Source of the DNA: Betaproteobacteria bacterium
Lineage (GTDB): Bacteria > Pseudomonadota > Gammaproteobacteria > Burkholderiales > Ga0077523
Assembly: GCA_025350245.1 (NCBI GenBank)
Contig: JANXYG010000118.1
Span: forward strand, 482 to 64,481
Reading direction: 5' to 3'
DNA: 64,000 bases
Both the position numbers and the translations under genes were made by a program. Shown piece after piece: positions 1,648-19,919 of the stretch. Each line of letters starts with the position of its first letter. Position 1 is the first letter of the stretch. Below the pieces are notes generated by a model. It ran no database searches. It was not told where the DNA came from and saw only the letters and a program-made list of their open reading frames with translations.

Positions 1648-1691
1648 ACCTTTTGCGCGGGATCCGAGCGGGCGAACCAGGGCAACGACCT

Positions 1692-2027
1692 CTACTCAAA
1701 AACCTCCGCCGGCCGGATGCCGAATGCGCTCCTGTCCACCTTGCCTTCAGGCCGATGGATTTCGAGGCTTCGGGCGCTCGGGACAACAATCCACGCCTCG
1801 GTCGCCCCTGCCGCCAGGTACCCCGACGCCTTTTCGCGGAGCTTGGGCATCGCGTTACCCGGCGAAGCGATCTCGATGCACAGCTCGGGCGCCGCGGAAA
1901 GCGGAGCGTCTTCGGGATGCGCCGCAAGGAACGCGTCGGAGCACCAGGCAACGTCCGGTGCCCGGATTCCCGCTGCCGTCAGGATTCCGACGTCGACCAT
2001 CGCCTTACCACCCGGTTTTCGCATCAA
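1692..2027 (-). pseudogene. Uma2-family (DUF820) endonuclease, 3' two-thirds only; second copy of the gene at 18851..19369
   Basis: The 111 codons align almost residue-for-residue with aa 62-172 of the full-length ORF at 18851..19369 (GGKAMV[DE]VGILTAAGIRAPDVAWCSDAFL..EIHRPEGKVDRSAFGI[RQ]PAEVFE). About a dozen nt differences over ~340 nt. The N-terminal ~61 codons and a real start codon are missing. Confidence 0.85.
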
Positions 2028-2043
2028 CAGGAACGGTATTGGG

Positions 2044-2678
2044 TCAGGTCTTGCCCCGCAACACTGCCGCCTTCATCACCCTCACCCGTGGCCACAACAC
2101 CACGACCCCGATCGCCACGAACAGCCAGGATGCCGGCTCCGGGATAACCGCGATGTGCACCGGCAACGACAGCGACAGCGACAGCGTACTGGGGCTGGGG
2201 CTGTCCGTCACCACCGGCATCCCTGTGGCATCGAGTTCGATCACCGGGTCAGGGGTCACATCGATCGTGACGTTGAAATTCAGGCGGACCGGTGCGCCGT
2301 TCAGCACCCTCAAGGTGCCAATCAGGAAGGTGAGCTCCCCACCGGCGATGACGGTCACCGGTCACGGTGAACGCGCAGGGCTCGGTGTCCAGCGTCGCGG
2401 TCTTGCCGTCGGTCGGAATCCCGTCCTTGAACGACGGCGTGTAGAACTCGGCGCCGTTGTACTTCTGCCGCGTGAGATAGTTGACGCTGGAGATTCGAAA
2501 TCGAGCCACCAGTCCGGACCGCTCCCGGCGTTGTCACGGCTCACCGTGAGCGACTTGAGCCGTCCAAGGTTGTTCGAGGGAATGGCCAGGTAGTTGGCGG
2601 TGTCGCGGTAGGCAGAAGAACCCGCACGGCAGCCACCCACACCACCGCAAACGCGGACCAAACGCGCTTTCTGAACAT
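2044..2678 (-). pseudogene. PEP-CTERM protein gene with at least three frameshifts
   Basis: ATG at 2678 opens a signal peptide (MFRKRVWSAFAVVWVAAVRVLLPTA) that stops after 47 codons. The protein-like sequence then continues in the other two frames (..NYLAIPSNNLGRLKSLTVSRDNAGSGPDWW.. / ..ISSVNYLTRQKYNGAEFYTPSFKDGIPTDGKTATLDTEPCAFTVTGD..). It ends in the 2044..2358 frame with a canonical PEP-CTERM tail, VIPEPASWLFVAIGVVVLWPRVRV. Confidence 0.6.
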
Positions 2679-3099
2679 GCCACCCCCCCGACATCTGCAG
2701 CAAGTGCCGCAGACGCGGCGATCGGGAGGACATTTTCGTTGCCGAGCACTCGTTTATGACGGGATACCAGGCTTCGAATCTGATAAACGTCAAGCTCGTG
2801 GGGTCAACTGCATTCCCATGTTGACAAGTCGACTATCCGGCTTGAAACTTCATCCGTGGGCCATGTTTGGATGTGACATCTGCATACATTTTCTGCTGGT
2901 GAACGTCATACCGGAGGCTGCAATTGTTACGGTCGCACAGACGACTGAGCGACCATATGGTGAATCCGTTGCCACCGGCAACGCTTGGCCGGATTTGCAA
3001 CCAGGGATCGCCCCTGGAACGTGGGCTGTCAGGAATCGGATTCGGACGGATTTCATCACCCTGCTGGTCCATCGTCATTCGCCCCACAAGGAGACAAAG

Positions 3100-4089
3100 T
3101 TGAAAATTTCCAGACGAGAAAAGAACCGCGGGCAGGTCCGCATCTATCCTGCCCTCGCCGGCTTGGCGCTTGCCATGTCATTCGGCACCTCCCCTTCAGC
3201 CATGGCCGGCGGCGGCGGTACCCCCTTTCCCTCCCAGGGCGACGACACCACCTTCTCGCTGGGGCAATTCCGCATCGCCGTGGACGCGAAGTTCCAGCCG
3301 TTTCTCTCTGGTGCGCCGGGCTACGACAGCACCACGCACAGATTGACCAGCCCCCTCCTGTTCGATCCGTCCACCAAAATCGGCCGAAGCAATCCGATCA
3401 TCGCCGGCAGCGCCGATGATCTGCTCGGGACACCCGTCGGATCCGCCGGCACCATCGTCAAGGATTCAGACCATACGCTGGTGCCTGTGGGCTTCGAGAA
3501 CGCCGGCGACACCACCTCGCGGGAAGTGCATACGCAGATCATCGACTTCAACCTGGGCCGGGGCTCGGGCGGGCCGGCAGTGCGCGCCGGTCTGAGCGCA
3601 CCGGATCGTCCGGCGAGCGTCGGCGAGGTCGAATCGCTCAGTACCAGCGGCAAACCCGACAAGGACTTCTCCGCGCGCAGTTTCTTCGACGTGTTCGTCG
3701 ATGTGGATCTGCCCGGCTTTGGCACCCTGTACAACAAAGCCCCTCTCCTGATCGAAAACGATCTGATCACCGGCTTCCCGCCGACCGTCGTCTACATCCA
3801 TGGCGGGACGAGCGCGATCCCGCTGTTGTTCTCGGCCAACGATCCGAACGGACACTGGTTGAAGGACGACCGCTTCGGGTATCTGGTGCTCGCCGGGCAC
3901 GGGGTCGGGTTTGCCCCTGCAGGACATGGGCATGGCGGCGAGCCGGGCGAGGTAGAGTTCGAAACGGAACTGAATCGTCATGGCGAGTTGCCGATCCCGG
4001 TTCCGGAGCCGTCGTCGGCCCTGCTCCTGGGTATCGGCCTGGCTGCCGTCGGCCTCGCCTATGGCAGGAAGCGTTCGCAGCAGGCCTAG
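3100..4089 (+). CDS. PEP-CTERM sorting-domain protein (secreted, exosortase substrate)
   Basis: In-frame TTG at 3100 with an AAGGAG RBS about 7-8 nt upstream (3089-3094). The signal peptide ends ..LALAMSFGTSPSAMA. The C-terminus PVPEPSSALLLGIGLAAVGLAYGRKRSQQA has PEP, a TM helix and a basic cluster. The long upstream part of the 2677..4089 ORF is not protein-like. Confidence 0.8.
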   Translation: MKISRREKNRGQVRIYPALAGLALAMSFGTSPSAMAGGGGTPFPSQGDDTTFSLGQFRIAVDAKFQPFLSGAPGYDSTTHRLTSPLLFDPSTKIGRSNPIIAGSADDLLGTPVGSAGTIVKDSDHTLVPVGFENAGDTTSREVHTQIIDFNLGRGSGGPAVRAGLSAPDRPASVGEVESLSTSGKPDKDFSARSFFDVFVDVDLPGFGTLYNKAPLLIENDLITGFPPTVVYIHGGTSAIPLLFSANDPNGHWLKDDRFGYLVLAGHGVGFAPAGHGHGGEPGEVEFETELNRHGELPIPVPEPSSALLLGIGLAAVGLAYGRKRSQQA

Positions 4090-4112
4090 CCCGCGCGCCG
4101 CGATCCGCCCAA

Positions 4113-4145
4113 GCCCCCGGCGCGTTTCGCGCGGGGCTTTTTCTT
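4113..4145 (+). terminator. Rho-independent terminator after the PEP-CTERM gene
   Basis: GC-rich hairpin gcccc(cg)gcgc-gtttc-gcgcggggc followed by tttttcttg, 24 nt after the stop at 4089. It lies between convergent genes. Confidence 0.6.
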
Positions 4146-4189
4146 GTGGCCCCGCCGCCACGCCGACGCCGCCAGTTGAGAAAGATGGG

Positions 4190-5908
4190 CTAGATGGCGT
4201 TGCCGACCTTCACGCCATCGTGGAATTCGATGTCCTCGAGGCGTCGATGTCGTGTCTCGACACCGAACACGACCATGGCCACGAGCGCGATGGTCATCGA
4301 GATCCCGCCGATGATGGCGATGCCGGCCATCGATGGCGGCGCAATGCCGAACACGACCAGACAAATGATACCGACGCCGCCTGCCTTGCACGCCCCGGCG
4401 TAGAAGCCGGATCCTTTCGCGCGTATCCGGGTCGGGTAGATCTCCGAGCAGTAGACCGACACGACCGCGGTCACCGAATTGATCCCCCAGATCGGGACCA
4501 CCAGCAACCCGTAGAGCAATGCGCGATTGCCCACGATCGCGTCACCCGCCAGCACAAAGCCGAACATGGCAGCCGCAGTGATCGCCGCCAGCAGGACGAT
4601 GGTCTTCTTGCTGCTCCAGAATCCGTACAGCCACGACACCACGAACGTCAACGGAAAGCCGAGCAATGCGGCGTTGCGAAGGATCGTGTCGGCATCGGCC
4701 AGCCCCAGCTTGCGCAGGTTGGTCGGCATCCAGAAATTGAACCCGAACAATATGAAACCGGTGCCGATGCCCAGACTGGCGATGACCAGTGTCAGCGCCA
4801 GATGTGCACGGCTCCAGCGTCGCCACTGGCGCGGAACCGGGTGGTCCGCCTGCCCATCGGGTTGAGCCTGGGTCACCACCGCCGCCCCGTAGCGCCGCAT
4901 CACGGCGCCGGCCTCGTCGATCCGGCCATATGCCAGCAGATACCGAGGAGATTCCGGAATCCAGCGGTTGAGCATGATGAACAGCACGCCGGTGGGCAAG
5001 CCGATCAGCCACAGGATGCGCCAGCTGTAGACCGGCACCAGTTCGGCAGCGATCCAGCTGGTGAGGATGTACGCCCCCGCGATGTCAGCGCCGATCAGTA
5101 CCGACAGCCATCCGCGATGCCGGGCGGGGATGGTTTCGGCAAGCAGCGTATAGGCAATGGGCAACATGCCCCCAACGCCTAGCCCCATCAGGAAACACAT
5201 GGCCACGTTCCAGTAGAAGTCTGGCATGGCCCCGCAAATCGAGGTCGCGATGAAGCTGATCCCGGCGTACAGGATCGAAGCCCTTCTGCCGATCTTGTCG
5301 CCCAGCCATCCCCACACCATGGAACCGATGACCGTGCCGGTGATCCCGGCAAGCGCCAGATAGGCAGCCGGAATGGTCCCCGCCGGATTCAGGGGTGACT
5401 TCAGGCCGTACTCCGCGGTCATGCCGGGAACCACGAAGGCGAGCGAGGTCGGCTTCATGATGTCGATCGTGACGGCCACCGCCATGCTGAGCAGCAGTGC
5501 CACGTGCGCGAAGCTCAACGTCGCGTCGTCGAGGGCAGCCACGCGCAGCGACCGGTCGCCCCTCTTGCCGTCGCCACCGCCCTTCGGGAACAGACCGTAC
5601 AGGCTGACCGCCATCCCCGCGATGATGACGACCATGCCGAGCGTCATCGACCAGTCCATCGGCATGCCGACGAGCCGGTAGCCGTTGTGTCGCCCATGCA
5701 GGTACATCGGCAGGTGCAGCAGCACGCCGGCGATCACGGCGGTCACGCCGATCCAGAAGGCGACGGGGCGATGAAACGTTACGCCACCCAGTTCGCCGGA
5801 TAGGGTCCGAAGACGCCCGAGGGAATCGCGTCGGGTTTCCGGCTTGCGCGTCACGCCATCGACCGGGGGGACCTGCCGTCGCTCAGCATGGCGCACCGTC
5901 GGGCGCAC
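4190..5908 (-). CDS. MFS transporter (putative exporter of the PKS operon)
   Basis: 572-aa ORF with many hydrophobic helices. MFS motif A is GWLGDKIGRRASIL, and there is a sugar-porter-like PESPRYLL. The first codon is GTG at 5908, 6 nt after the UnbU-like stop. The exact start is uncertain (about 60-aa basic N-terminal extension). Confidence 0.8.
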   Translation of the reverse strand: MRPTVRHAERRQVPPVDGVTRKPETRRDSLGRLRTLSGELGGVTFHRPVAFWIGVTAVIAGVLLHLPMYLHGRHNGYRLVGMPMDWSMTLGMVVIIAGMAVSLYGLFPKGGGDGKRGDRSLRVAALDDATLSFAHVALLLSMAVAVTIDIMKPTSLAFVVPGMTAEYGLKSPLNPAGTIPAAYLALAGITGTVIGSMVWGWLGDKIGRRASILYAGISFIATSICGAMPDFYWNVAMCFLMGLGVGGMLPIAYTLLAETIPARHRGWLSVLIGADIAGAYILTSWIAAELVPVYSWRILWLIGLPTGVLFIMLNRWIPESPRYLLAYGRIDEAGAVMRRYGAAVVTQAQPDGQADHPVPRQWRRWSRAHLALTLVIASLGIGTGFILFGFNFWMPTNLRKLGLADADTILRNAALLGFPLTFVVSWLYGFWSSKKTIVLLAAITAAAMFGFVLAGDAIVGNRALLYGLLVVPIWGINSVTAVVSVYCSEIYPTRIRAKGSGFYAGACKAGGVGIICLVVFGIAPPSMAGIAIIGGISMTIALVAMVVFGVETRHRRLEDIEFHDGVKVGNAI

Positions 5909-5914: not shown

Positions 5915-6847
5915 TCACTCCTGCGCCCTCGCCGTCGATCCGATGGCCGGCGTGGCATGGGACGCCTTCGCGAGCCACGAGGTTGCACCGATCAGCGCAC
6001 CGCGGCCAGCGCAGGTGACGCACAGCGAGAAGAACAGGCCGAACACGATGCCGGCGTGCGACATCAACCCGTATACGCTGGCAGTGGCGACGCCGAAGAT
6101 GATCTGCCCCCGTGTGCTGCGCGGCGTCGTGACCGGGTCGCTGATCATGTAGAACGTGAACAGCACGAAAGCCATGCCGCTCATCGGCTCGAGCAGCGTC
6201 GCGAAATCCTGCATCGAGAACAACGAACGCGCCGCCGCCTGTCCGACGAAACCCGCGAGCCAGGCAAGTACCAGGATGATCCGCTTGGTGGCCCGTATGT
6301 TCAGGAAGGAGCCGCTGCACACGATGGCCACCGGGATCACCCAGTCGAGAGCGCCGCTCACATTCTCGGTAAACTGATAGGGCTGTGCCACCCCCACCCA
6401 GTTGCTGAACAGCAGCAGCGTTGCCGCGATCCCGAAGTTGGACGGGTTCATGAAGTGCGTCGTGACGCCCGGCGGCGCGTTCGGCACCGGCACCCGCAAC
6501 AGGACCTTCGAGAAGATCGCGAGCGATGCCGCGAAAGCAACGATCACGAATCGCTCGTTAGTGTAGAGGAGCATGCCTACCGCCAATCCGGTGATGTGGG
6601 CCGGCAGCAGGAACACGACCAGGTGGCGGACACTGCCGCGAAACCGCGCGCGTTGCCAACCGTTGATCGCGAGCTCGATGCCGATTTCAGAAAGATAGGC
6701 CGCGAACACGGCGACCAGCGGCGTGAGCCATGCCTGTTCGAAGCCGAGCCAGGTGTGCCCGAGAACATTGAGCGCCGTGATCGCGATTGCGAAAGGCACT
6801 ATGCCCGGCCGGGGCAACGGCGGTTTGGTGTTCGAGGTCGTGCTCAT
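5915..6847 (-). CDS. UnbU-like polytopic membrane protein (enediyne-cassette E5 type)
   Basis: 310 aa from ATG 6847 (GGGAGAG RBS), inside the spurious 578-aa ORF 5915..7651. About 8-9 hydrophobic helices (..FAIAITALNVLGHTWLGFEQAWLTP..HFMNPSNFGIAATLLLF..FTFYMISDPVTTP..). Its position after the UnbV-like gene matches the conserved cassette. The family call is from recall, not a search. Confidence 0.65.
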   Translation of the reverse strand: MSTTSNTKPPLPRPGIVPFAIAITALNVLGHTWLGFEQAWLTPLVAVFAAYLSEIGIELAINGWQRARFRGSVRHLVVFLLPAHITGLAVGMLLYTNERFVIVAFAASLAIFSKVLLRVPVPNAPPGVTTHFMNPSNFGIAATLLLFSNWVGVAQPYQFTENVSGALDWVIPVAIVCSGSFLNIRATKRIILVLAWLAGFVGQAAARSLFSMQDFATLLEPMSGMAFVLFTFYMISDPVTTPRSTRGQIIFGVATASVYGLMSHAGIVFGLFFSLCVTCAGRGALIGATSWLAKASHATPAIGSTARAQE

Positions 6848-6861: not shown

Positions 6862-8931
6862 TCAGGGTTGCAGCAATGCAACCACTTGTTGTCCGACGTG
6901 CACCGATTCGAATCGGGCTTCCTTGACACCGGCGCTGCCGGAACGCCACGTGATCAGGAGATCGGCCGTCGTGCCGGCCGGGACACGCCCGAGGCCGATA
7001 TGAATGTCCGGGCTGCGCTTGCCCGAGTGCCCGTTGCCGCCGTCGACCTCGGCCGAGAACACCCGCCCGTCGCTCAATCGGATCGATACCCGGGCGCCCA
7101 GGGCCGGGCGCGACCGGATCCGCACGTCGCTCGCCTCCGCCGCGCTCATGAGGTGCGGTCGCCCACCGGAATCCCCGACCACGAATCGCGGGCTGATGCC
7201 GATGAAGGCGTTCTCGCCGGCGGCGCGCGATGTGTTGTGGTGAAACTCGGGCGCGGCATATTGCCGCGCCTCGATATAGTCGAGACGGCCATCCTGGTCC
7301 GCATCGGCGATGGCCAACCCTCGCGTCGGTGCCGGTGCGCCATGCACCAGATGATGGAGCTGCGGCGAGACGTCGACGAAGCGTCCCGAGGGGCGCATCA
7401 CGAAAAACGGATTGCGGCGCGAGTTGCCGCTCAGGTCGCACCCCAGGCCCGATGTGTCCTGTTCCATGCGGAACCAGGCAGCGGCATGCTTCAACAGGCT
7501 GTCGTTCGAGGTTGCCAGTTCCTGCAACATCGCCCAGCAGCTCTTGCGCCAGACCAATCCGGCGTCGGCATCGCGTCCGCGCACGAACCCCACCGCCTGC
7601 AGGGCCTCGACTTTTCCGTCGTTGTCGAAATCGGCAAGCTTCGCATCCCATGCCCAGCCACTGCGCGACACGCCGTAGGCTTCACTTTCGTCGGAAAACG
7701 GCGCGACGCCCCGCTGCACCAGATCGGTATCGATCTTCCGGCCGTCACTGACGAACAGGAACTGGCTTTCCTGCAGTGCCCACTTCTCGGTGATGTTGCT
7801 CACGTAGATGTCGGGCAGGCCGTCGCCATTCACATCGCCGAAGTCGACGCCCATGCCCTTGAAGGAGTCACGCCCGATGACCTTGGAGCGAGGTTTCGAC
7901 AGGGTGCGCCTGCCCTCGATCATCCGGAACGACACCGGTCCGTCGAGAGGGAAACAGCCGAGTTTCGCGCGCGTGCGGCCGAAACTTTCCTGGGCCCGGG
8001 AGCAGTTCATCAGCATCCGGTCAGGGCCGAAGTCATTGGCGAAGTAGAGGTCCGGAAGGCTGTCGCCGTTCAGGTCCTGGGCGCCGATCGCCAGGGTCCA
8101 GGCGTTCGCTACTTCGGGCGCGAACGGCGCCGGCGCGGCGACGAACAACACCGCCGGCTGCGACCCGCCGGCGGCGGATTTCCACAGGAGGATGCGATTG
8201 GTGCCACCATTGTAGGCGCGCGACATGGAATCCTGCATCACCGGATGCGGGCACACCGGCGCCGTCGTGTTCGCATCGAGGATGCGACCATCGTCGCAAA
8301 AATAGTTGCCGACCACGAGGTCGGCGTGGCCGTCGCCATCGACGTCCGCGAGCAGCGCCGTGTTGGTGAACCATCTCTGCTCGCTCGCGACCGGCACGGC
8401 AACATAGCTGTCCGCACCGGGGCGTTCGCTCGCCGTCGTCGGCCCATGATCGATCCGCAGGAAAGCCACCGGCGGCCGCCCCCAGTAATAGGTGAGCAGA
8501 TCGGCGAGGCCGTCCTCGTTGAGATCGGCGATGAGGCAGCCCATGGGCGCGATGGTGCGCGGATCGGCGGTACCCGCCGGCAACGGCAGCCGGAACGATT
8601 GGTACCGGTCGGTGAGCAGCGCGGCGACCACCACCTGATTGATGCGGGTGTCGACGTAACATGTGTCATCGGGTTTCAGATTGCCGTCCACATCGCCGAT
8701 TGCGGCGGCAGCGCCGACCGACGAAATCCAGGGGCCGATGCGTTGCAGGTCGGGATGCACGTCGCGCGTTTGGCGCGCCGTGAGGCCGAACCGGTTGTCG
8801 AGCGTAGTGCTGCTGAACGAGAACCGTGCCTTCACCTCGGCATCGGACACCGTCTCGCCCGGCAGACCAGCGGCGGCGCCGAGCGAGAACAGGACGGCGA
8901 CGCCTAGAATTCGAGCTCTGAGAACTGACAT
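6862..8931 (-). CDS. UnbV-like / CRTAC1-family secreted FG-GAP repeat protein with a C-terminal ASPIC-UnbV segment
   Basis: 689 aa from ATG 8931 with signal peptide MSVLRARILGVAVLFSLGAAAG. At least 7 FG-GAP/VCBS-type loops: DVDGNLKPDD, DLNEDGLADL, DVDGDGHADLVVGNYF, DLNGDSLPDLYFANDFG, DVNGDGLPDIYVSN, DFDNDGKVE, DADQDGRLDYIE. The C-terminal DGGNGHSGKRSPDIHIGLG resembles the ASPIC/UnbV domain. Confidence 0.75.
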   Translation of the reverse strand: MSVLRARILGVAVLFSLGAAAGLPGETVSDAEVKARFSFSSTTLDNRFGLTARQTRDVHPDLQRIGPWISSVGAAAAIGDVDGNLKPDDTCYVDTRINQVVVAALLTDRYQSFRLPLPAGTADPRTIAPMGCLIADLNEDGLADLLTYYWGRPPVAFLRIDHGPTTASERPGADSYVAVPVASEQRWFTNTALLADVDGDGHADLVVGNYFCDDGRILDANTTAPVCPHPVMQDSMSRAYNGGTNRILLWKSAAGGSQPAVLFVAAPAPFAPEVANAWTLAIGAQDLNGDSLPDLYFANDFGPDRMLMNCSRAQESFGRTRAKLGCFPLDGPVSFRMIEGRRTLSKPRSKVIGRDSFKGMGVDFGDVNGDGLPDIYVSNITEKWALQESQFLFVSDGRKIDTDLVQRGVAPFSDESEAYGVSRSGWAWDAKLADFDNDGKVEALQAVGFVRGRDADAGLVWRKSCWAMLQELATSNDSLLKHAAAWFRMEQDTSGLGCDLSGNSRRNPFFVMRPSGRFVDVSPQLHHLVHGAPAPTRGLAIADADQDGRLDYIEARQYAAPEFHHNTSRAAGENAFIGISPRFVVGDSGGRPHLMSAAEASDVRIRSRPALGARVSIRLSDGRVFSAEVDGGNGHSGKRSPDIHIGLGRVPAGTTADLLITWRSGSAGVKEARFESVHVGQQVVALLQP

Positions 8932-13300: not shown

Positions 13301-16213
13301 CCGGGCGCGGATGGAATTCAGGTGCAGGTCACCGAGGAGCCGAAGGTTGCCGTCGAGTCCGCCCGCGCCGAGCCCCGTGACGTCGGCAAGCACCGTGCGC
13401 AAGGCGTCGATGGAGGCGACATCGCTGCGCACGCGCAGGCTCGATCGGTCAGGCATGGCGGGTGTTTCAGCCACGGCGTCCGGCAACGCGACGGGCGCCT
13501 GATCACCGACTGGCAGTCCGCACGGGTTCGCCAGGAACACGGGGTGGTCGTCGATGCCGCAAGGCCGCATCGACCGACCGTCATACAGCGTGTCACGCCC
13601 GAGTTCTCCGCCAAAAGTCCAGAACGCCCCCATGGCCAGCAACATCGACACCGGCGAGTCGGCGAACAACTCGAGGGACAGCGCGTGACCGCCCTTTCGT
13701 TCTGCAACCAATCCGACCAGTGATGCGCTCGCGCCGACCTCGATGACCAGGTCCGCGTCGCCGATCGCGTCCAGCGCGTCTGCGAACTTCACCGGTGCCA
13801 CCACTTGTCGCGCCAGCAGCGTCGGCAGATGCTCAGCCCCGTCGAGCATGATTCCGGTGATGCTGGACACCATGGGCGCGCGCGCCGGCAGCCAGTTCAC
13901 GGTGGCGAGATGGGTCGAGAAAGCATCGCTGGCCGCCTGCATGAGGCGCGAGTGGAATGCCCGCGAGGTCGGCAGGATGTCGGCCGCGATTCTCGCCTCC
14001 GAACACGCCGCCGCAACCGCGTCGATCCGTGTGGTCTCGCCGGCCAGGACGTACCGGTTGGCCCCGTTTTCGCAGGCGAGGTCGACGCCGTGCGCAGCGG
14101 TCAGCGCGATCACACGGTCGCGCGGTGCACGTAACGCGATCATCGCGCCGCGCGCGGCGCTGGCGCTCATCACTTGCCCGCGCGCATCCGCCATCGCACG
14201 AAATGCCGCGACATCGATGCGGCCCGAGGCCAGGAGCGCCGACAATTCACCGAAGCTGTGCCCGAAGACGACTGACGGTTCGATGCCGAACTGCGCGAGC
14301 AGTTGCAGTCCCGCCACGGCAACCTCGCCGAGCAGCGGCTGCACCACTGCGGTGTCGCTCAGGTCGCGTGCCGCCAACGTCGACGCTCGCGAAGCCGCAG
14401 CGGCAAGCGACGGAAAACGAGCCGCCCACGGGCCGGGCGTCATCTGCAGCGGCAGGCCCTGTCCGGGGAAAAGCAGCGCCACCCTGGGGCTGGCGGTGGC
14501 CGGCGCCGACCAGCAGAACCGGGCGCCGATGTGCCGCTGCTTCCCGGTGCGTTCGCGCAGCGATTCGACGGCGGCATCCGCAGCCGTCTGAAGTTCTTGG
14601 GGCGTGGCCGCAACCAGGCTCGCGCGCCAGCACGCCGGATCGGCGGAAGGGTTCAGGGCGAAGGCCAGATCCCCCATCTGCGCGCGGGACAGCGTACGTG
14701 CCCGATTGGCCATCGTCGCGAGCAGGGCTGCAAGGCTGTCGTCATCAACGGCCTGCAACTGGAACAGCTCGCCGGGCAGCAGCGACAGGTCACGCAACGG
14801 CAGCGCCATCGCGGTCGGGTGGTGCGGTTCGGCGTCTTCCGCGCCCTGAATCACCACGTGGCAGTTGACGCCGCCGAAGCCGAACGAATTGACGCCGACA
14901 ACAATCGGCTCGGCGTGCGAGACCAGCTCGGCCCGGGAACGGACGTTCACGCGACGTCCGGTGTCTCCCTGCAGGATGGCATGCGGTATCTCGCAGCCGG
15001 TGGTCGGCGGAATGATCCGCTCGCGACAGATGGCGATGGCCTTGAGCAGGCCGGCCATGCCGGCAGCGGCCTTGGTATGGCCGATGTTGCCCTTGATCGA
15101 ACCCACCGGTATCGGCCGGTCCGGAACCGTAGTGCCCAGGAGTCCGGCAAGACCGGCCAGTTCGACCGGGTCGCCGGTCGGTGTACCGGTGCCATGCGCC
15201 TCGAAATAGTCGGCCGCTGCCGCGGACAGGCCCGCGCGGGCCCACGCGCGTTGCGCAGCCAGCGTCTGGCCTTCGACTGTCGGTCGGGTAAGGGCGCCTT
15301 CCCCGTCGGTCGACATGGCTGCGCCACGCACCCAGGCGAGTACCGGCCAGCGTCGTCGTGCGACGACTTCCTCGGACGCCAGCACCAGGAATCCGCATCC
15401 CTCGCCTGGCCAGAAGCCGTCGGACTTTTCATCGAAGATACGCATCGACTGTCGCGCGAGCGCCCCATTGCGCGCAAAACCCACCAGCTCGAACGGATCA
15501 AGGCTCAAGTCAACGGCACCGACCACGACGCAACCGATGTCGCCCATCGCGAGTCGCTCGAAGGCGGTGACGACCGCCACGAGCGACGAGGCGCAGGCGC
15601 CGTCCACCGTGTGCGCGCCGCCGCGCAGGCCGTGATGGTTGGCGATGCGGCCCGCGATCGTGTTCGACAACCCACCGGCCAGGCTGTCTTCGTCAGGCGC
15701 CGGAAACGGCGCCTTGTAAGCTGCCTCGAGCGCCCTGATGCCGGATTCCGGGATAACCGGTGACTGATCGTCGTTGCGCATGTCGCGAAGCAGGCGCTCG
15801 ACGTAGGGCCAGCGATAGCGCATGAGGTGCGATCGGCTGAACTCGCCGGTCAAGGTATTCGCGACGATCACGGCCGTCGTGTCGCGCTCCGCAGCCATGC
15901 CGGCGGGATCCAGATCCGACAGCGCCCGCGTGGCGACATCGAGCGCGAGCCAGTGAGCCATGTCCGTGCGTTCGAAGGCGGACTCGGGCACGCGAAAGCG
16001 CTCCCGATCGAATCGATAGCCCTCAAGAAGAGCAGCCTCTATGGGATAGATACTGTCAGGCCCTGTGGCTGCGCGGACATAGTCGTCGACAATCAGACGC
16101 TCGGCGGGAATCCGCCGGAAACTGCGCCTGCCGTGCAGCACCGTCGCCCACAACTCCCGGAGCGTTCGCGCATCGGGGAATTCGCACGCTGCCGCTACAA
16201 CCGCCACGTTCAT
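10367..16213 (-). CDS. Iterative type I polyketide synthase of the enediyne PKSE architecture (KS-AT-ACP-KR-DH-PPTase)
   Basis: 1948 aa, ATG 16213 with GGGAGG 9 nt upstream. Motifs in order:
- KS: DGACASS (Cys207), EAHGTGT (His340), KGNIGHT (His379)
- AT: GHSFGE (Ser653), AFHS
- single ACP: LGDLHLNSI (Ser967)
- KR: VVVTGGARGIGAA (1199-1211), SHYALAN (Tyr1345)
- DH: LRDHAPFHVPVFP (His1475)
- C-terminal PPTase-like: VAVDLQ..WTLSECLIK (1809-1863). Confidence 0.9.
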   Translation of the reverse strand: MNVAVVAAACEFPDARTLRELWATVLHGRRSFRRIPAERLIVDDYVRAATGPDSIYPIEAALLEGYRFDRERFRVPESAFERTDMAHWLALDVATRALSDLDPAGMAAERDTTAVIVANTLTGEFSRSHLMRYRWPYVERLLRDMRNDDQSPVIPESGIRALEAAYKAPFPAPDEDSLAGGLSNTIAGRIANHHGLRGGAHTVDGACASSLVAVVTAFERLAMGDIGCVVVGAVDLSLDPFELVGFARNGALARQSMRIFDEKSDGFWPGEGCGFLVLASEEVVARRRWPVLAWVRGAAMSTDGEGALTRPTVEGQTLAAQRAWARAGLSAAAADYFEAHGTGTPTGDPVELAGLAGLLGTTVPDRPIPVGSIKGNIGHTKAAAGMAGLLKAIAICRERIIPPTTGCEIPHAILQGDTGRRVNVRSRAELVSHAEPIVVGVNSFGFGGVNCHVVIQGAEDAEPHHPTAMALPLRDLSLLPGELFQLQAVDDDSLAALLATMANRARTLSRAQMGDLAFALNPSADPACWRASLVAATPQELQTAADAAVESLRERTGKQRHIGARFCWSAPATASPRVALLFPGQGLPLQMTPGPWAARFPSLAAAASRASTLAARDLSDTAVVQPLLGEVAVAGLQLLAQFGIEPSVVFGHSFGELSALLASGRIDVAAFRAMADARGQVMSASAARGAMIALRAPRDRVIALTAAHGVDLACENGANRYVLAGETTRIDAVAAACSEARIAADILPTSRAFHSRLMQAASDAFSTHLATVNWLPARAPMVSSITGIMLDGAEHLPTLLARQVVAPVKFADALDAIGDADLVIEVGASASLVGLVAERKGGHALSLELFADSPVSMLLAMGAFWTFGGELGRDTLYDGRSMRPCGIDDHPVFLANPCGLPVGDQAPVALPDAVAETPAMPDRSSLRVRSDVASIDALRTVLADVTGLGAGGLDGNLRLLGDLHLNSIRARHAIATTARLLGLAQLPFDLSKLAKATLDDIAAYLDGLRHSAPDDDDAVPAGLEPWLRLFDHRWVDAEVVPVEIAGWPWPVALEDSLAPLPDACRSCLCTPPDVGGAGMFLLVLPSLGSDHALAALLECAMRVTSAADGAGLLVLQGAQLANGFLRSIAAEVPNRRWCVVEYEQLDPATLECAVVEFARRDHGFSELRLRGRSQQRRRLAATALQECPSSWAPPPDTTVVVTGGARGIGAATALALAQRFQCRLALVGRTPADDPQIVATVATLQAAGSDVRYYRGDLSDDAQAGTIVADIEAGSGQVCAVIHSAGINRPSGVAELTLDEIKATVASKVASLDNLLAHLSCRRLELVIGYSSIIGELGLAGESHYALANEWLNNLLSRVAGDLPNCRVIPICWSAWGEAGMAVRLEGVLDGLRRAGTRPIDSTEAIDALRQLLSHSSQVPVIVTGRYGRTIDPATELGPLQAHRYLERPRVFYPGVELVADAEICSDGDRYLRDHAPFHVPVFPVVCALEAMVSAGQCVCERQDLPVVTELSIGEAVSCTLGQRFVLRTAALVRADGSVHLQVRSDTTGFDVVHFSARLTWAAPAFTPMAGAYDLGPGVPAAGVLYQGLCFHGPRFRRVATVVAVSATHCRFRTGPGPNSDWYGPLLPQRLWSGDLSLRDAVLHGLQMCVPHQVVLPVGAATIRLGRLATDVEYTIDARQTFSDGRRFVFDIQVCDAAGMVAEQWIGLELLRSVAASASEAPCVLPRELLQPLLVRLAVDELGAHDATAGVVFGQARDRRSGAALSLALGRPVDPGRAPDGAVRVEGASVSTSHANDVTVALARTAGPVAVDLQFQPDYPIDDWRVMLGEPRSGFAEHLARQGLASLADAMLIVWTLSECLIKLGCADWQLATTSFQRVETSHMGPVWFFDQGSRRMAVMLLKLASADAPRPAMLAVAVEGVAAAGDARLVDATDAQRAADERVSTPA

Positions 16214-16322
16214 GGGCTCAGGACCTCCCGGTTTCGCTGCGGCGGCGCCTCGCTGCGATCTTGAGTGGGACGTGACTCAGCGTGGGCGCGTCATCGACGC
16301 TGTCGCCAAATCAGAAACAATT

Positions 16323-16352: not shown

Positions 16353-16593
16353 AGTTTTCCTATTGGAGAACTCTCACGATTCGATACATTGGCAACAAAT
16401 CATCGGTCGCCAACTTGCCTTGTGTCAAGCTTTGAAGGTATTCACCTGGCATCCACACGCGGCAGACCTGCGCACGATGCGACGCTGACAGGATGGTCGG
16501 CCATGCGCCTAGTCTGCGCCAGCCCGGGGCCGCAGCGCGCTGATCGTATGGTGGCGCTATCGGGGCAGGGCGTTGCGACCCGCGATGCGCCGC

Positions 16594-16725
16594 TCAGTTC
16601 GTGACTGCTTCCGCCACCCGCGACGTATCGAAGTTCTGCGCCTTCAGCCACTGCGTGAGCACGGTGTCCATGGTGGCGTGGCTGCAGAACCCGTTGCCCA
16701 GTTCCTGCGCCAGCACCTCACCCAT
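16594..16725 (-). pseudogene. Bacteriohemerythrin 3' fragment (last ~43 codons); second copy of the gene at 19497..19919
   Basis: The minus strand reads MGEVLAQELGNGFCSHATMDTVLTQWLKAQNFDTSRVAEAVTN*, aligning with ..KVLAQELGNWFCSHAATMDTMLAQWLKAQNFDTSREGEAVTS* of the full gene. About 5 substitutions plus one 3-nt indel over ~105 nt (16618-16718 vs 19521-19624). An in-frame stop lies just upstream (16756-16758). Confidence 0.8.
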
Positions 16726-16834
16726 TTTGGGATAGACAACGGGAACTGCCAGGGATCAGACTGATATCTTGGGGAAGGTAACTTCCGTGTGGGGGGGGGC
16801 CAACTCCGTAACCACAACCAAAGGAGACATTTAC

Positions 16835-17632: not shown

Positions 17633-17663
17633 TGGTCTTGCGTATCGCATCCCAAAGCAGATC

Positions 17664-18466
17664 CTGATTAGCGACCAACCTCAGCAGGCTCATCTGGTGA
17701 GCCACTGAGGTTGGATGATGAGCACACCGATACCGGAGGTGTGCGATGGCGATGGTGTGCGATGGCGATGAACCGGGTGCAATTTCAACCCGCACTTTCG
17801 ATGAGCGAGTTCTTTGAACGCTACGAAACCGAGGATAAATGCGAGGCGGCGCTGTTCGCCTCGCGCTCGCCGTAGGGCTGGCGCTGTCCGGTGTGCCAGT
17901 GCGCCCGTCGAGCAGCTTTATCCGCAATGGCCGACGCTACTGGCAGGGCAGTGCCCGTCACCACCAGAGCACGGTGATCAGCAGCACCGTCTTCGAGGCC
18001 ACCAAGCTGCCTCTGACCCGCTGGTTCCAGGCTATGCACCTGCTGACCCAGGCAAAGAACAATCTGTCGGCGCTGGATCTCATGCGCCACCTCGGGGTTT
18101 GCTACAAGACCGCGCTGCTCATGAAGCACAAGCTCATGGAGGTCATGCGCCTGCGCGAAGACTCCCGCCAGCTCACCGGGCGCGTCGAGATCGACGACGC
18201 CTATCTCGGGGGCGAGCGCGCCGGCGGCAAGCGTGGCCGGGGCTCGGAGAACAAGGTGCTGAGCAATCTGAAGACCGCCCTGGCCGGCACCTACCATTCG
18301 TTCCACTTCGCCAAGTATGCGCATCGTTACCTCGCCGAGGCCCAGTACCGCTTCAACCGTCGTTTCGATCTCGCCGCAATCTTGCCGCGACTGTTGCGGG
18401 CTGCCGCGGTGACCAGGCCACAGCCGGGGCGCCTGCTGCGCGCGGCTGAGGTTGGTCGCTAATCAG
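17664..18466 (+). mobile_element. Internally deleted, non-autonomous IS1595-family element with perfect 22-bp terminal inverted repeats
   Basis: IRL ctgattagcgaccaacctcagc (17664-17685) is the exact reverse complement of IRR (18445-18466). The inner ORF has the IS1595 N-terminal Zn-ribbon region (MSEFFERYETEDKCEAALFASR..WRCPVC) with an in-frame TAG, and zinc cysteines lost (YWQGSARHHQ). ..GRGSENKV is joined directly to the C-terminal ..YHSFHFAKYAHRYLAEAQYRFNRR, so the DDE core is deleted. A 16-bp tandem duplication lies at 17739-17770. No matching target-site duplication is seen. Confidence 0.75.
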
Positions 18467-18659
18467 CTTCCCAATCCCGCACGCGGGAAAGGCGTTCTCG
18501 AAGAAACAAAGGGTTAGCGATTTTTTTCCTCGAGAGAGGAAAGGCTTTTAACATCAGCTGCAGGTCTTCGATATTGCGATTTCTGGGTCCGCTTCCAGAG
18601 GCGAGCGGCCAAAGGAGAACCGACGCTCGCCTTGGCGATACTCGACGGAGTCCAACTCG

Positions 18660-18806
18660 ATGAACAAGCCACCTTCCGCCAAGGCCCGGCCTGACGTCCC
18701 CGACGACGCGCCCGTGCGCCGTTCTGACATCGCCGCTGGCAGGCTGGTGCTCCGCAAGCGCGACCAGAACGGCGCGGTGCTGCCGAGACCTACTCGCCAA
18801 TCGTGA
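18660..18806 (+). CDS. Small hypothetical ORF (48 aa) convergent with the Uma2 gene
   Basis: ATG 18660 with GGAG about 9 nt upstream: MNKPPSAKARPDVPDDAPVRRSDIAAGRLVLRKRDQNGAVLPRPTRQS. It is below the ORF-track cutoff. No family recognised; it could be non-coding. Confidence 0.2.
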   Translation: MNKPPSAKARPDVPDDAPVRRSDIAAGRLVLRKRDQNGAVLPRPTRQS

Positions 18807-18850
18807 TCTGACTGGTCGGGCACCGAGTGGGTGTACTCGAGCAACCGTCT

Positions 18851-19369
18851 CTACTCGAACACCTCCGCCGGCTGGATGCCGAATGCGCTCCTGTCCACCT
18901 TGCCTTCAGGCCGATGGATTTCGAGGCTTCGGGCGCTCGGGACAACAATCCACGCCTCGGTCGCCCCTGCCGCCAGGTAGGCCGACGCCTTTTCGCGGAG
19001 CTTGGGCATCGCGTTACCCGGGGAAGCGATCTCGATGCACAGTTCGGGCGCCGCGGAAAGCGGAGCGTCTTCGGGATGCTCCGAGAGGAACGCGTCGGAG
19101 CACCAGGCAACGTCCGGTGCCCGGATTCCCGCTGCCGTCAGGATTCCGACTTCGACCATCGCCTTACCACCCAGTTTTCGCATCAAAAGAACCGAGAGCG
19201 CTACCGCCAGCAACCCGTGCGCTTTTCCCACTGGACTCATCAGGATTTCTCCCCACTGGGTGAGCTCGATCTTTCCCGGCACGTCCTCGAAGGTCGGATC
19301 GATGCACATACTCCGCCATCTCTCGGACAATTCGAGCGGGCTCAACGGCACCTCTATGACGTCAACCAC
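18851..19369 (-). CDS. Uma2-family (DUF820) putative restriction-endonuclease-like protein, full length
   Basis: 172-aa ORF whose first codon is GTG. ..KIELTQWGEILMSPVGKAHG..VGILTAAGIRAPDVAWCSDAFL..PELCIEIASPGN..KREKASAYLAAGATEAWIVVP.. fits the Uma2 PD-(D/E)xK-like pattern (D..E.S). Confidence 0.75.
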   Translation of the reverse strand: MVDVIEVPLSPLELSERWRSMCIDPTFEDVPGKIELTQWGEILMSPVGKAHGLLAVALSVLLMRKLGGKAMVEVGILTAAGIRAPDVAWCSDAFLSEHPEDAPLSAAPELCIEIASPGNAMPKLREKASAYLAAGATEAWIVVPSARSLEIHRPEGKVDRSAFGIQPAEVFE

Positions 19370-19496
19370 TCTGCATATACCTCATCAAGGGTGATGGCCC
19401 GACGTTACGCCTGGCCCAAAAATGCCGCAAGGCTACCCTGGAGAGGCCCCGTTGCGGGCCACTTTGAGGTGGCTACATTCTTGGTTTGCGCATTGC

Positions 19497-19919
19497 TCAA
19501 CTCGTCACCGCCTCACCCTCCCGCGACGTATCGAAGTTCTGCGCCTTCAGCCACTGCGCCAGCATGGTGTCCATGGTGGCGGCGTGGCTGCAGAACCAGT
19601 TGCCGAGTTCCTGCGCCAGCACCTTGCCCACCTTGAACTTGCCTTCGACCACGTAGCCGCGCGTTTCGTGAATGGCGTTGAGCACGCCGTCGTGTTCATC
19701 GAGATGGCAATGCGTCGGCGGAAAATCGGTCGCGGCCATCCAGCGCTGCTCCTGCCCGAAGTGCTCTTCGGTGTGAGCGATCAGCGCGTCGATCGCGGCG
19801 AGCATCGTATCGTCGGTGGCATCGCCGACAACATTGAGCATGTCGACAAATTCGCGGTGCGTCTCGTCGATGCGGGCGTCGCCGAGGGCGAGTTCAGGGG
19901 TCCAGTCCAGCGTTGCCAT
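19497..19919 (-). CDS. Bacteriohemerythrin
   Basis: 140 aa from ATG 19919. MATLDWTPELALGDARIDETHREFVDML.. and ..LIAHTEEHFGQEQRWM..HCHLDEHDGVL carry the H..HxxxE..HxxxH..HxxxxD iron ligands typical of hemerythrin-like domains. Confidence 0.85.
   Translation of the reverse strand: MATLDWTPELALGDARIDETHREFVDMLNVVGDATDDTMLAAIDALIAHTEEHFGQEQRWMAATDFPPTHCHLDEHDGVLNAIHETRGYVVEGKFKVGKVLAQELGNWFCSHAATMDTMLAQWLKAQNFDTSREGEAVTS

What the first reader, a model, noticed from the sequence alone, without database searches (positions are those of the whole stretch)
1690..19624. The PKS/PEP-CTERM module sits between partial second copies of the adjacent hemerythrin-Uma2 locus (direct repeats ~17 kb apart)
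The native pair is hemerythrin (19497-19919) and Uma2 (18851-19369).
- A second copy of the last ~43 hemerythrin codons lies at 16594-16725. It differs from the native copy by about 5 substitutions and one 3-nt indel over ~105 nt.
- A second copy of the last 111 Uma2 codons lies at 1690-2030 (vs 18849-19190). I count about 12 mismatches in ~340 nt.

Both copies have the same orientation as the originals. The ~14.5 kb between the two fragments holds the PKS operon, one intact PEP-CTERM gene and the decayed one. The third PEP-CTERM gene and the deleted IS1595 element fill the gap to the native copy.

This looks like an island inserted into, or brought in with, a diverged copy of the same locus. 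The same-orientation repeats could mediate deletion of the whole module by homologous recombination.
Basis: seen in the sequence. Interest (0 to 1): 0.7.

Follow-up and report, generated by a model that had tools for sequence, protein, structure and literature searches.

The report
PKS island bracketed by Uma2 repeats
A 17-kb accessory DNA segment carrying an enediyne-type polyketide gene cassette sits in a variable spot next to the replicative helicase gene of an uncultured Burkholderiales bacterium, flanked by real partial gene duplicates that record how it got there; it is a well-documented but ordinary kind of genomic island.

Summary
Both repeats are real. Uma2: 1658-2030 vs 18817-19189, 93.6% overall and 96.4% in the coding part. 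Hemerythrin: 16592-16724 vs 19495-19630, 86.8%. Both pairs are direct repeats. An independent short-read contig is 100% identical to window 1962-16646 and breaks inside both repeats.

Comparison with relatives shows the two fragments have different histories.
- PKS-less relatives (L069, L070) read dnaB-hemerythrin-Uma2-toxin/antitoxin genes. This is the empty frame, so the "native pair" is ancestral.
- In the closest lineage (L001+L063 and four more assemblies) the same module lies between hemerythrin and an intact Uma2.
- The hemerythrin fragment sits at the same place in all of these, 97-98% identical. It is an old relic that belongs to the module.
- Only the Uma2 truncation and duplication are specific to this genome.
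- The module is on average more similar between lineages (97.2%) than the essential-gene backbone (93-94%).

Best reading: an accessory segment without its own recombinase, placed by homologous recombination through Uma2 (single crossover of a circle, or unequal crossover), then eroded by deletions. Only the Uma2 pair (17,159 nt apart, 106-nt perfect run) could delete the whole module. The hemerythrin pair is 2.9 kb apart and does not bracket the PKS. This is a new member of a known kind, of moderate interest.

The parts
29..559 (+). C-terminal remnant of an IS4-type DDE transposase, beyond the distal end of the module
   Evidence: Pfam DDE_Tnp_1 E=2.4e-9
1055..1339 (+). ParD-like ribbon-helix-helix antitoxin; part of the ancestral frame
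   Evidence: Weak Pfam hits: TacA1 passes its cut-off (E=4.4e-5); ParD and RHH_1 are below their cut-offs. 78% aa identity to the ParD(-) downstream of Uma2 in PKS-less relative L070
1348..1647 (+). ParE toxin, convergent with the truncated Uma2; part of the ancestral frame
   Evidence: Pfam ParE_toxin E=4e-7; 65% aa identity to L070 ParE(-)
1658..2030 (-). Uma2' : 5'-truncated copy of Uma2 (last 111 codons at 1692-2027, plus ~33 nt of 3' flank); distal direct repeat
   Evidence: BLASTN 93.6%/373 nt to 18817-19189; 12/336 coding differences, 6 synonymous and 6 nonsynonymous; Pfam Uma2 E=1.5e-15; junction reproduced in L056
2031..2041 (.). Illegitimate deletion junction (~11 nt filler) joining the end of the decayed PEP-CTERM gene to Uma2 codon ~62. 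Relatives carry a ParD-like gene, a spacer and the Uma2 5' end here
   Evidence: Junction sequences compared; relatives' layout
2044..2358 (-). Decayed PEP-CTERM gene; internally deleted version of a 380-aa ORF in relatives
   Evidence: Translation ends in VIPEPASWLFV...; only the ends match L061's 380-aa ORF
3100..4089 (+). PEP-CTERM protein (329 aa as called in relatives)
   Evidence: Pfam/NCBIfam PEP-CTERM; 99% aa identity to the L061 329-aa protein
4190..5908 (-). MFS transporter
   Evidence: Pfam MFS_1/Sugar_tr
5915..6847 (-). E5/UnbU-like membrane protein (310 aa)
   Evidence: Weak NQR2_RnfD_RnfE hit; six hydrophobic segments; position in the cassette
6862..8931 (-). E4/UnbV-like protein (FG-GAP repeats + UnbV_ASPIC)
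   Evidence: Pfam
8942..9952 (-). E3/UnbL-like protein (DUF1702)
   Evidence: Pfam DUF1702 E=5.6e-90; several homologues are named 'enediyne biosynthesis protein E3' by JGI
9945..10370 (-). E10-like hot-dog (4HBT) thioesterase
   Evidence: Pfam 4HBT_2
10367..16213 (-). Iterative type I PKS, 1948 aa, KS-AT-(ACP)-KR-DH; enediyne-PKS-like
   Evidence: Pfam domains; PfaA-like KS; DynE8 AT domain 4amn E=3.7e-35; weak ACP hit
16592..16724 (-). hem' : relic of the last 43 codons of a hemerythrin gene, fixed at the PKS-proximal end of the module
   Evidence: BLASTN 86.8% to 19495-19630; present and 97-98% identical in L061-L065
16769..17632 (+). Third PEP-CTERM gene. The block of ~97% identity with relatives ends at 17662
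   Evidence: Pfam PEP-CTERM; relatives align from 17662 down to 2595
17663..18817 (.). Stretch specific to this genome: IS1595-family transposase remnant (17839-18462, +) and orf96 (18554-18844, -). Relatives have a different ~1.3-kb spacer here
   Evidence: Pfam DDE_Tnp_IS1595; no nucleotide match in relatives; orf96 is 47% aa identical to a stretch after the L001 hemerythrin
18818..19488 (-). Intact Uma2 unit: upstream spacer 19370-19488, gene 18851-19369, ~33-nt 3' flank; proximal direct repeat
   Evidence: Pfam Uma2 E=9e-21; whole unit 87% identical to the relatives' unit; the hemerythrin-spacer-Uma2 arrangement is shared with L069
19497..19919 (-). Resident hemerythrin gene; last gene of the conserved backbone
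   Evidence: Pfam/NCBIfam; dnaB-hemerythrin synteny in L001-L006, L069, L070; homology with L001 ends at the stop codon
19958..22402 (-). dnaB with a LAGLIDADG intein; backbone anchor
   Evidence: Pfam

Best explanation
The stretch between the two Uma2 repeats (repeat period 17,159 nt, roughly window 2031-19189) is an accessory segment. It lies in a hypervariable spot directly downstream of the conserved rpsF-priB-rpsR-rplI-dnaB-hemerythrin backbone of an uncultured Burkholderiales lineage.

Its cargo is an enediyne-type iterative PKS cassette (PKS, hot-dog thioesterase, DUF1702/E3, UnbV/E4, UnbU-like/E5), an MFS transporter and three PEP-CTERM genes.

Shown:
- The ancestral frame is dnaB-hemerythrin-Uma2-toxin/antitoxin genes.
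- In this genome the segment sits inside that frame, after the intact Uma2 and before a 5'-truncated Uma2 that keeps a ParE/ParD flank.
- In the sister lineage the same segment sits one gene earlier, between hemerythrin and an intact Uma2.
- The hemerythrin fragment is part of the segment in all lineages.

Inferred:
- The segment has no recombinase of its own. It was placed by homologous recombination through Uma2: either a single-crossover (Campbell-type) integration of a circular copy, or an unequal crossover/tandem duplication later trimmed.
- About 0.65 kb was then lost at the distal end (ParD-like gene, spacer and Uma2 5' end), and the neighbouring PEP-CTERM gene suffered internal deletions.
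- The hemerythrin fragment is an older scar from a time when the PKS cassette directly abutted the 3' end of a hemerythrin gene.
- The two Uma2 coding parts were homogenised by the crossover or by gene conversion, because identity falls from 96% to ~61% exactly at the stop codon.

Consequence: RecA-type recombination between the Uma2 copies would delete the whole 17.2 kb and restore hemerythrin-Uma2-ParE-ParD. Recombination between the hemerythrin copies would delete only 2.9 kb and place the PKS directly behind a hybrid hemerythrin gene.
For: - Repeats are real and direct; island-side junctions are reproduced in an independent assembly (L056).
- Empty frames: L069 reads dnaB-hemerythrin-Uma2-VapBC..., L070 reads dnaB-hemerythrin-Uma2-...-ParE(-)-ParD(-); neither has a PKS. 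The hemerythrin-Uma2 spacer is homologous in the window and L069; in L070 the spacer is a run of N.
- Sister lineage: L001 (dnaB-hemerythrin) overlaps L063 by an identical 141-mer, and L062 spans the join. This gives hemerythrin - ~1.3 kb - PEP-CTERM - hem' - PKS ... ParD-like - spacer - intact Uma2 - IS4 transposase.
- The module aligns to the window from 17662 to 2595 at 97.2%.
- hem' is 97-98% identical between lineages but 12-18% from the resident hemerythrin genes.
- The two Uma2 copies are each other's closest relatives: 105/111 aa, against at most 98/111 for any database homologue. Unique changes fall on both copies, 7 and 5.
- The longest perfect run is 106 nt for Uma2 and 39 nt for hemerythrin.
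- Module 97.2% vs backbone 93-94% identity to the same MAG, p~5e-35, with overlapping 1-kb bins.
- No tRNA or integrase at the module.
Against: - The order of events is not resolved.
- A simple Campbell event with a donor like the sister lineage predicts that one Uma2 copy per segment is donor-type (~88%). Both copies are of this genome's type, so gene conversion or a closely related donor has to be added.
- The Uma2'-ParE junction has no independent assembly support.
- No circular form, deletion variant or hybrid Uma2 was observed.
- No donor hemerythrin with a fragment-like C-terminus was found (only three candidates were scored).
- GC content does not set the module apart.
- The sister-lineage contigs end in an IS4 element, so what follows their Uma2 is unknown.
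Confidence: 0.55

Rival explanations
1. Secondary copy model. The ancestor of this genome had the sister-lineage layout (hemerythrin - module - Uma2). The Uma2 unit next to hemerythrin is a later internal duplication of the distal Uma2, whose original was then truncated. The hemerythrin-Uma2 adjacency here is therefore convergent, not ancestral.
For: The closest lineage has no Uma2 beside hemerythrin. The two window copies are sisters and both are ~88% to the sister lineage's Uma2. Tandem duplication plus deletions can produce the layout.
Against: It requires re-creating by chance the exact hemerythrin-spacer-Uma2 arrangement, with a homologous spacer, that is seen in the more distant PKS-less L069 (L070 has the same gene order but its spacer is N). 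It needs at least three events. A recent duplicate should share the 3' flank, yet identity collapses at the stop codon.
Confidence: 0.2
2. Decayed site-specific integrative element. An element carrying its own copy of the hemerythrin 3' end integrated into hemerythrin and displaced the original end (hem'), as prophage e14 does at icd in E. coli. The hemerythrin repeats are attL/attR remnants, and the integrase was later lost.
For: The direct repeat covers exactly a gene's 3' end up to the stop codon, and the resident gene stays intact. The repeat is diverged, as expected for an element-borne gene end. IS remnants lie between the repeats.
Against: No integrase or excisionase lies between or beside the repeats. 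The DNA between the hemerythrin repeats is only 2.9 kb here and ~2.2 kb in relatives, and it excludes the PKS. The model does not explain the Uma2 duplication.
Confidence: 0.15
3. Assembly artefact. The contig is a chimera of two strains or molecules joined through the shared Uma2 sequence. For example, an empty-frame chromosome plus a separate, possibly circular, copy of the module.
For: The source appears to be a metagenome-derived contig. The 106-nt identical run could mislead a short-read assembler. The Uma2'-ParE junction is not independently confirmed.
Against: The two copies differ at 12 sites spread over the repeat, and both are present in one contig. L056 independently reproduces the module-Uma2' and module-hem' junctions at 100% identity, and it breaks as expected if both copies co-occur in the sample. 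The PEP-CTERM - hem' - PKS order is reproduced in five other assemblies.
Confidence: 0.07
4. Chance or family-level similarity: Uma2 is a multi-copy family and the fragments are unrelated paralogues.
For: Uma2 homologues are very numerous in metagenomes (274 hits at E<=1e-20 among only 397 candidates scored).
Against: E-values are 2e-161 and 2e-40. The two copies are closer to each other than to any of the listed homologues. The adjacent gene is duplicated as well, and no other Uma2 copy exists in the window.
Confidence: 0.01

Closest known systems
Genomic islands / biosynthetic gene clusters in chromosomal hotspots, flanked by direct repeats made from partial copies of the target gene (Campbell-type or unequal-crossover products)
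   Same: Accessory cargo is absent from related genomes with an otherwise syntenic frame. Same-orientation repeats derived from the target gene bracket the insert: one intact copy and one truncated copy. IS remnants and toxin-antitoxin genes lie at the edges. The cargo is more similar between lineages than the core genes are.
   Different: No integrase, relaxase or tRNA target, and no compositional contrast. The repeat is a protein-gene fragment of 340 nt rather than a short att core. The same segment occupies shifted positions (before or after Uma2) in sister lineages.
Integrative elements that carry a substitute 3' end of their target gene (e14 at icd in E. coli K-12; from memory: Hill, Gray & Brody 1989, not checked here)
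   Same: The hemerythrin fragment is a displaced or duplicated 3' gene end. It runs exactly to the stop codon, is diverged from the functional end, and is in direct orientation.
   Different: No integrase. The DNA between the hemerythrin copies is small and lacks the PKS. The fragment is conserved together with the PKS module rather than with the interposed DNA.
Enediyne PKS gene cassette E3/E4/E5/E/E10 (PMC5181780)
   Same: All five gene types are present and contiguous: a 1948-aa KS-AT-(ACP)-KR-DH PKS, a hot-dog thioesterase, DUF1702, UnbV_ASPIC and a 310-aa membrane protein.
   Different: The host is a betaproteobacterium. Enediynes are reported only from Actinobacteria and ascidian extracts, although enediyne-like KS domains occur in Proteobacteria (PMC10308959). 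There are no tailoring, self-resistance or apoprotein genes. The gene order is E-E10-E3-E4-E5. The C-terminal PPTase domain was not detected by Pfam. The product is unknown and may be a polyene rather than an enediyne.
Uma2 family (PF05685), annotated by Pfam as a putative restriction endonuclease
   Same: Both copies match the family model.
   Different: No activity or mobility is known for this gene. Here it serves only as the homology shared by the two ends of the insert.

Membership tests
Repeat-flanked genomic island in a chromosomal hotspot | Same-orientation repeats at both ends of the insert | tested here: met
   Uma2 pair, 373 nt, 93.6% (96.4% in the coding part), 17,159 nt apart
Repeat-flanked genomic island in a chromosomal hotspot | Related genomes with the same flanking frame but no insert (empty site) | tested here: met
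   L069 and L070: dnaB-hemerythrin-Uma2 followed by toxin-antitoxin genes, no PKS. L002-L006: dnaB-hemerythrin, with no module within 4.7-10 kb of sequence available downstream
Repeat-flanked genomic island in a chromosomal hotspot | Evidence of horizontal exchange (cargo history differs from core history) | tested here: met
   Module 97.2% vs backbone 93-94% identity to the same MAG, p~5e-35. The 1-kb bins overlap: 94.7-99.6 vs 91.4-96.4
Repeat-flanked genomic island in a chromosomal hotspot | Atypical base composition | tested here: not met
   GC 0.63-0.70 in the module vs 0.60-0.69 around it
Site-specific integrative element (phage/ICE/IME-like) | Integrase or recombinase gene at one end | tested here: not met
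   None among the ORFs of 1-22.4 kb or in the relatives' flanks; only IS transposase remnants. DNA left of the window start is unseen
Site-specific integrative element (phage/ICE/IME-like) | Short identical att cores at the repeat edges, or a tRNA/tmRNA target | tested here: not met
   The only tRNA is at 27276. The repeats are long diverged gene fragments with illegitimate outer edges
Composite transposon / IS-bounded translocatable unit | Two copies of the same IS bounding the segment | tested here: not met
   A single IS1595 remnant lies inside, and an unrelated IS4 remnant lies outside. There are no IS-sized self-repeats
Enediyne PKS cassette (E3/E4/E5/E/E10; PMC5181780) | PKSE with KS-AT-ACP-KR-DH-PPTase | tested here: inconclusive
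   KS, AT, KR and DH are clear. ACP is weak, E=0.1. No PPTase hit, only a WTLSECLIK motif. DynE8 AT domain E=3.7e-35
Enediyne PKS cassette (E3/E4/E5/E/E10; PMC5181780) | E10 thioesterase, E3 (DUF1702) and E4 (UnbV) adjacent to the PKS | tested here: met
   4HBT_2, DUF1702 (E=5.6e-90) and UnbV_ASPIC
Enediyne PKS cassette (E3/E4/E5/E/E10; PMC5181780) | E5 (UnbU) membrane protein | tested here: inconclusive
   310 aa, six hydrophobic segments, weak RnfD-like hit. Not compared directly with a characterised E5
Enediyne PKS cassette (E3/E4/E5/E/E10; PMC5181780) | Production of an enediyne core | not testable with these tools
   Needs chemistry

The most novel reading that the evidence does not exclude
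The ~17-18 kb PKS/PEP-CTERM segment may be a recombinase-less translocatable unit. It would circulate among related Burkholderiales as a circle and re-enter chromosomes by homologous recombination at Uma2 genes. That would explain its shifted positions (before or after Uma2) in sister lineages, the Uma2 sequences on both sides in two independent configurations (this window and L061), and its higher between-lineage similarity than the core genes. The Uma2 nuclease itself might stimulate the exchange by cutting at or near its own locus.
Probability: 0.12. Interest if true: 0.6.

Novelty: new member of a known kind. Interest (0 to 1): 0.35.

Why it matters
It gives a concrete, well-anchored case of how a biosynthetic gene cluster is gained, shuffled and potentially lost in uncultured Burkholderiales without any dedicated mobility gene. 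The empty site, a sister-lineage configuration and two datable scars (an old hemerythrin relic and a young Uma2 duplication) are all identified.

It also yields testable predictions: a 17,159-nt deletion leaving one hybrid Uma2, and a 2.9-kb deletion fusing hemerythrin to the PKS upstream region.

The cargo is a compact enediyne-type PKS cassette in a phylum with no known product of this class, which is of some interest for natural-product mining. None of this changes current understanding of island biology.

Tried and rejected
- tblastx of relatives' flanks against the window gave only GC-rich noise and was discarded; only its blastn rows were used.
- Exact-sequence look-ups found nothing for the window's hemerythrin (two start choices), Uma2, ParD and ParE. 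So the outer frame junctions could not be checked in independent assemblies, and no deletion variant could be sought.
This was circumvented through cluster members.
- The metagenome scan with Uma2 returned only homologues of 65% identity or less, too distant to help.
- The peptide search with the hemerythrin fragment returned only the fragment ORFs, so no donor was identified.
- NCBIfam gave no specific names for the cassette genes.
- A literature search for UnbL/UnbV/UnbU found nothing in the held library.
- Rejected: chance similarity; a tRNA-targeted island; a composite transposon (no paired IS); a single recent duplication producing both fragments (divergences differ, p=0.003, and hem' is shared with relatives).
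- Considered and dropped as too weak: that the ~33-50 nt after the relatives' Uma2 represent a second orf96 copy. All three Uma2 contexts share this short 3' flank, so it is more likely the gene's own 3' untranslated region.

Full report
**1. Observation**

A self-BLASTN of the window finds exactly two direct-repeat pairs in the region.
- 1658-2030 vs 18817-19189: 93.6%, 373 nt, ungapped, E=2e-161.
- 16592-16724 vs 19495-19630: 86.8%, 136 nt, one 3-nt gap, E=2e-40.

The only other self-match in 64 kb is a short inverted REP-like pair.

Base-level alignments show abrupt edges. Pfam confirms that the first pair is the 3' part of a Uma2 gene and the second is the 3' end of a hemerythrin gene.
- Uma2: native gene 18851-19369, truncated copy 1692-2027, both on the minus strand.
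- Hemerythrin: native gene 19497-19919; the fragment is the last 43 codons.

The hemerythrin count of about 5 substitutions holds only for the central ~105 nt. The whole fragment has 15 substitutions plus the 3-nt deletion.

An independent short-read contig, L056 from SRR23617308, is 100% identical to window 16646-1962. It ends 54 nt into the hemerythrin fragment and 69 nt into the Uma2 fragment. Those are about the points where the first long runs shared with the native copies begin. So the island-side junctions are real and both copies co-occur in that sample.

**2. Gene content**

From the dnaB side outward:
- dnaB, with a LAGLIDADG intein
- hemerythrin
- a 9-nt gap
- the Uma2 unit: 119-nt spacer, gene, ~33-nt 3' flank
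- orf96
- IS1595 transposase remnant
- PEP-CTERM gene
- hemerythrin fragment
- a 1948-aa KS-AT-(ACP)-KR-DH PKS
- hot-dog thioesterase
- DUF1702 protein
- FG-GAP/UnbV_ASPIC protein
- 310-aa membrane protein
- MFS transporter
- PEP-CTERM gene
- decayed PEP-CTERM gene
- truncated Uma2
- ParE and ParD, convergent with Uma2
- IS4 transposase remnant

The five genes from the PKS to the membrane protein match the defining enediyne PKS cassette E/E10/E3/E4/E5 (definition in PMC5181780). Supporting hits are the DynE8 AT domain at E=3.7e-35 and homologues of the DUF1702 protein that JGI labels 'enediyne biosynthesis protein E3'. The ACP is weak and the C-terminal PPTase is not detected. Enediyne-like PKSs in Proteobacteria are known from metagenome surveys, with no product known (PMC10308959).

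No tRNA or integrase lies at the module.

**3. Relatives**

A genome scan with the hemerythrin protein found Burkholderiales MAGs with conserved dnaB-hemerythrin synteny (L001-L006). None has Uma2 next to hemerythrin. Homology between the window and the closest one (L001, DnaB 96% aa) ends exactly at the hemerythrin stop codon, so the variable region starts there.

The DUF1702 protein led to contigs carrying the same module. L061-L065 align to the window continuously from 17662 to 2595 at 97.2%. That block includes the third PEP-CTERM gene and the hemerythrin fragment.

In these relatives the module continues differently from the window:
- an intact version of the decayed PEP-CTERM gene
- a ParD-like gene
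- a spacer
- a full-length Uma2
- an IS4-type transposase

L063 belongs to the same MAG as L001. The last 141 nt of L001 are identical to the first 141 nt of L063, and L062 spans the join. The sister lineage therefore reads: dnaB - hemerythrin - ~1.3 kb - PEP-CTERM - hemerythrin fragment - PKS module - ParD-like - spacer - Uma2.

**4. Empty sites**

Context look-ups for more distant Uma2 homologues gave two PKS-less frames.
- L069: dnaB-hemerythrin-Uma2-VapBC-..., with no PKS.
- L070: rpsF-priB-rpsR-rplI-dnaB-hemerythrin-Uma2-methyltransferase-...-ParD-ParE-ParE(-)-ParD(-). The last pair is homologous to the window's left flank (78% and 65% aa).

Their backbones are 82-85% identical to the window. 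The hemerythrin-Uma2 spacer of L069 is homologous to the window's; in L070 the spacer is a scaffold gap of N. Hemerythrin-Uma2 adjacency is therefore ancestral. The window's outer frame, hemerythrin-Uma2 ... Uma2'-ParE-ParD, corresponds to an empty site interrupted by ~17.2 kb.

**5. The two fragments have different histories**

The hemerythrin fragment:
- 97-98% identical between the window and the sister lineage, like the rest of the module
- 12-13% diverged from the window's resident gene end
- 17-18% diverged from the sister lineage's resident gene end

It is thus older than the split of the two module copies, and it travels with the PKS.

The Uma2 copies:
- 96.4% identical to each other, and mutually closest among all homologues found (105/111 aa, against at most 98/111)
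- unique changes on both copies, 7 and 5
- each only ~88% identical to the sister lineage's Uma2, even though the adjoining module DNA is 97% identical
- identity between the two copies drops from 96% to ~61% right at the stop codon, which marks a recombination or conversion tract boundary

The divergences of the two repeat pairs differ significantly (p=0.003).

The truncation junction (2031-2041) is an illegitimate join with ~11 nt of filler. It removes the ParD-like gene, the spacer and the first ~61 Uma2 codons that relatives retain.

**6. Module versus backbone**

The module is on average 97.2% identical to the sister lineage (1-kb bins 94.7-99.6%). The backbone, which includes ribosomal protein genes and dnaB, is 93-94% identical (bins 91.4-96.4%). 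The difference is highly significant, p~5e-35. This points to exchange of the module between the lineages after they diverged.

**7. Mechanism**

Shown:
- an accessory segment in a hotspot
- empty sites
- permuted placement relative to Uma2 in two lineages
- one intact and one 5'-truncated Uma2 in direct orientation

Inferred: the segment was placed by homologous recombination through Uma2, either by single-crossover integration of a circular copy or by unequal crossover followed by trimming. Deletions followed.

Both routes require that the 3' flank of one Uma2 became joined to the proximal end of the segment (orf96). This is the joint seen at 18817-18850.

The hemerythrin fragment is best read as a scar of an earlier state in which the PKS cassette directly followed a hemerythrin gene. 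Whether that was in a donor genome or in an ancestor of this lineage is unresolved. A search for a full-length hemerythrin with a fragment-like C-terminus found only the fragment ORFs.

L061 shows a further configuration in the sister population: a Uma2 pseudogene (5' 90 codons) and a methyltransferase lead into the same module at a 141-mer branch point. Uma2 sequences thus flank the module in two independent layouts.

**8. Consequences**

- The Uma2 pair has a 106-nt perfect run and is 17,159 nt apart. It is a plausible RecA substrate, and the product would be hemerythrin-hybrid Uma2-ParE-ParD, an empty frame.
- The hemerythrin pair has a 39-nt perfect run at 87% identity and is 2.9 kb apart. 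It is a poor substrate, and recombination there would remove only Uma2/orf96/IS remnant/PEP-CTERM, leaving the PKS.
- No deletion or circular variant could be searched for with the tools available.

**9. Caveats**

- The Uma2'-ParE junction is supported only by the window assembly.
- The sister-lineage contigs end in an IS4 element.
- The DNA left of the window start is unseen, so a recombinase there cannot be excluded.
- The order of events and the need for gene conversion remain inferences.

**10. Verdict**

This is a repeat-bracketed genomic island of a familiar kind, unusually well documented by comparative data. Its moderately interesting features are the enediyne-type cargo in a betaproteobacterium and the apparently recombinase-free, Uma2-anchored placement.

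Noticed in passing
window 19958-22402 (dnaB); L001-L006, L069, L070: The DnaB intein (Intein_splicing + LAGLIDADG_3) is polymorphic among relatives. It is present in the window, L001, L069 and L070. It is absent in L002, L003, L004 and L006, where DnaB residues 1-398 and 750-814 are contiguous. In L005 the DnaB alignment is ~70 columns longer (887 vs 814 aa), which may mean a different or longer insert.
   Followed up: partly
window 34058-34104 and 43492-43540; also L001 10950-11044, L062 20-114, L070 13906-13969: A short REP-like repeat occurs as an inverted pair in the window. It recurs in the variable spacers of relatives next to the hemerythrin/module locus.
   Followed up: no
window 5915-16213: A compact enediyne-type PKS cassette (PKS, hot-dog thioesterase, DUF1702, UnbV, UnbU-like) plus an MFS transporter, with no tailoring or resistance genes, embedded among three PEP-CTERM genes in a betaproteobacterium. 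The product is unknown. The PKS C-terminus has no detectable PPTase domain, only a WTLSECLIK motif.
   Followed up: partly
L061 1-1732: In one sister-population assembly the module is entered from a different context: a ParE fragment (91% nt to window 1512-1621), a methyltransferase and a Uma2 pseudogene (5' 90 codons). The path branches from the dnaB-hemerythrin path at a shared 141-mer. This is either a second copy or a strain variant.
   Followed up: partly
window 2044-2607 vs L061 17218-19051: The distal end of the module is eroding in this genome. About 560 nt (a 122-aa ORF region) and about 745 nt inside the 380-aa PEP-CTERM ORF of relatives are missing or replaced. The relatives' 380-aa ORF itself has an Arg-rich stretch that looks like an out-of-frame translation, and it is called differently in different assemblies.
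   Followed up: partly
window 1055-1647; L061 19118-19396; L070 12602-13851: ParD/ParE-type toxin-antitoxin genes recur at the edges of this hotspot in different arrangements: a solo ParD-like gene upstream of Uma2 in the sister lineage, and two ParDE pairs in L070. L069 has VapBC, PemK/MazE and BrnT/BrnA instead.
   Followed up: no
window 27276-27362: The only tRNA gene in the window is tRNA-Leu(CAG). It lies on the backbone side, ~5 kb beyond dnaB, and is not associated with the module.
   Followed up: no
window 19497-19636 vs L001 10284-10423: The resident hemerythrin genes of the window and L001 are 94% identical in the first 283 nt but only 89% in the last 140 nt. Divergence therefore rises toward the edge of the variable region.
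   Followed up: no
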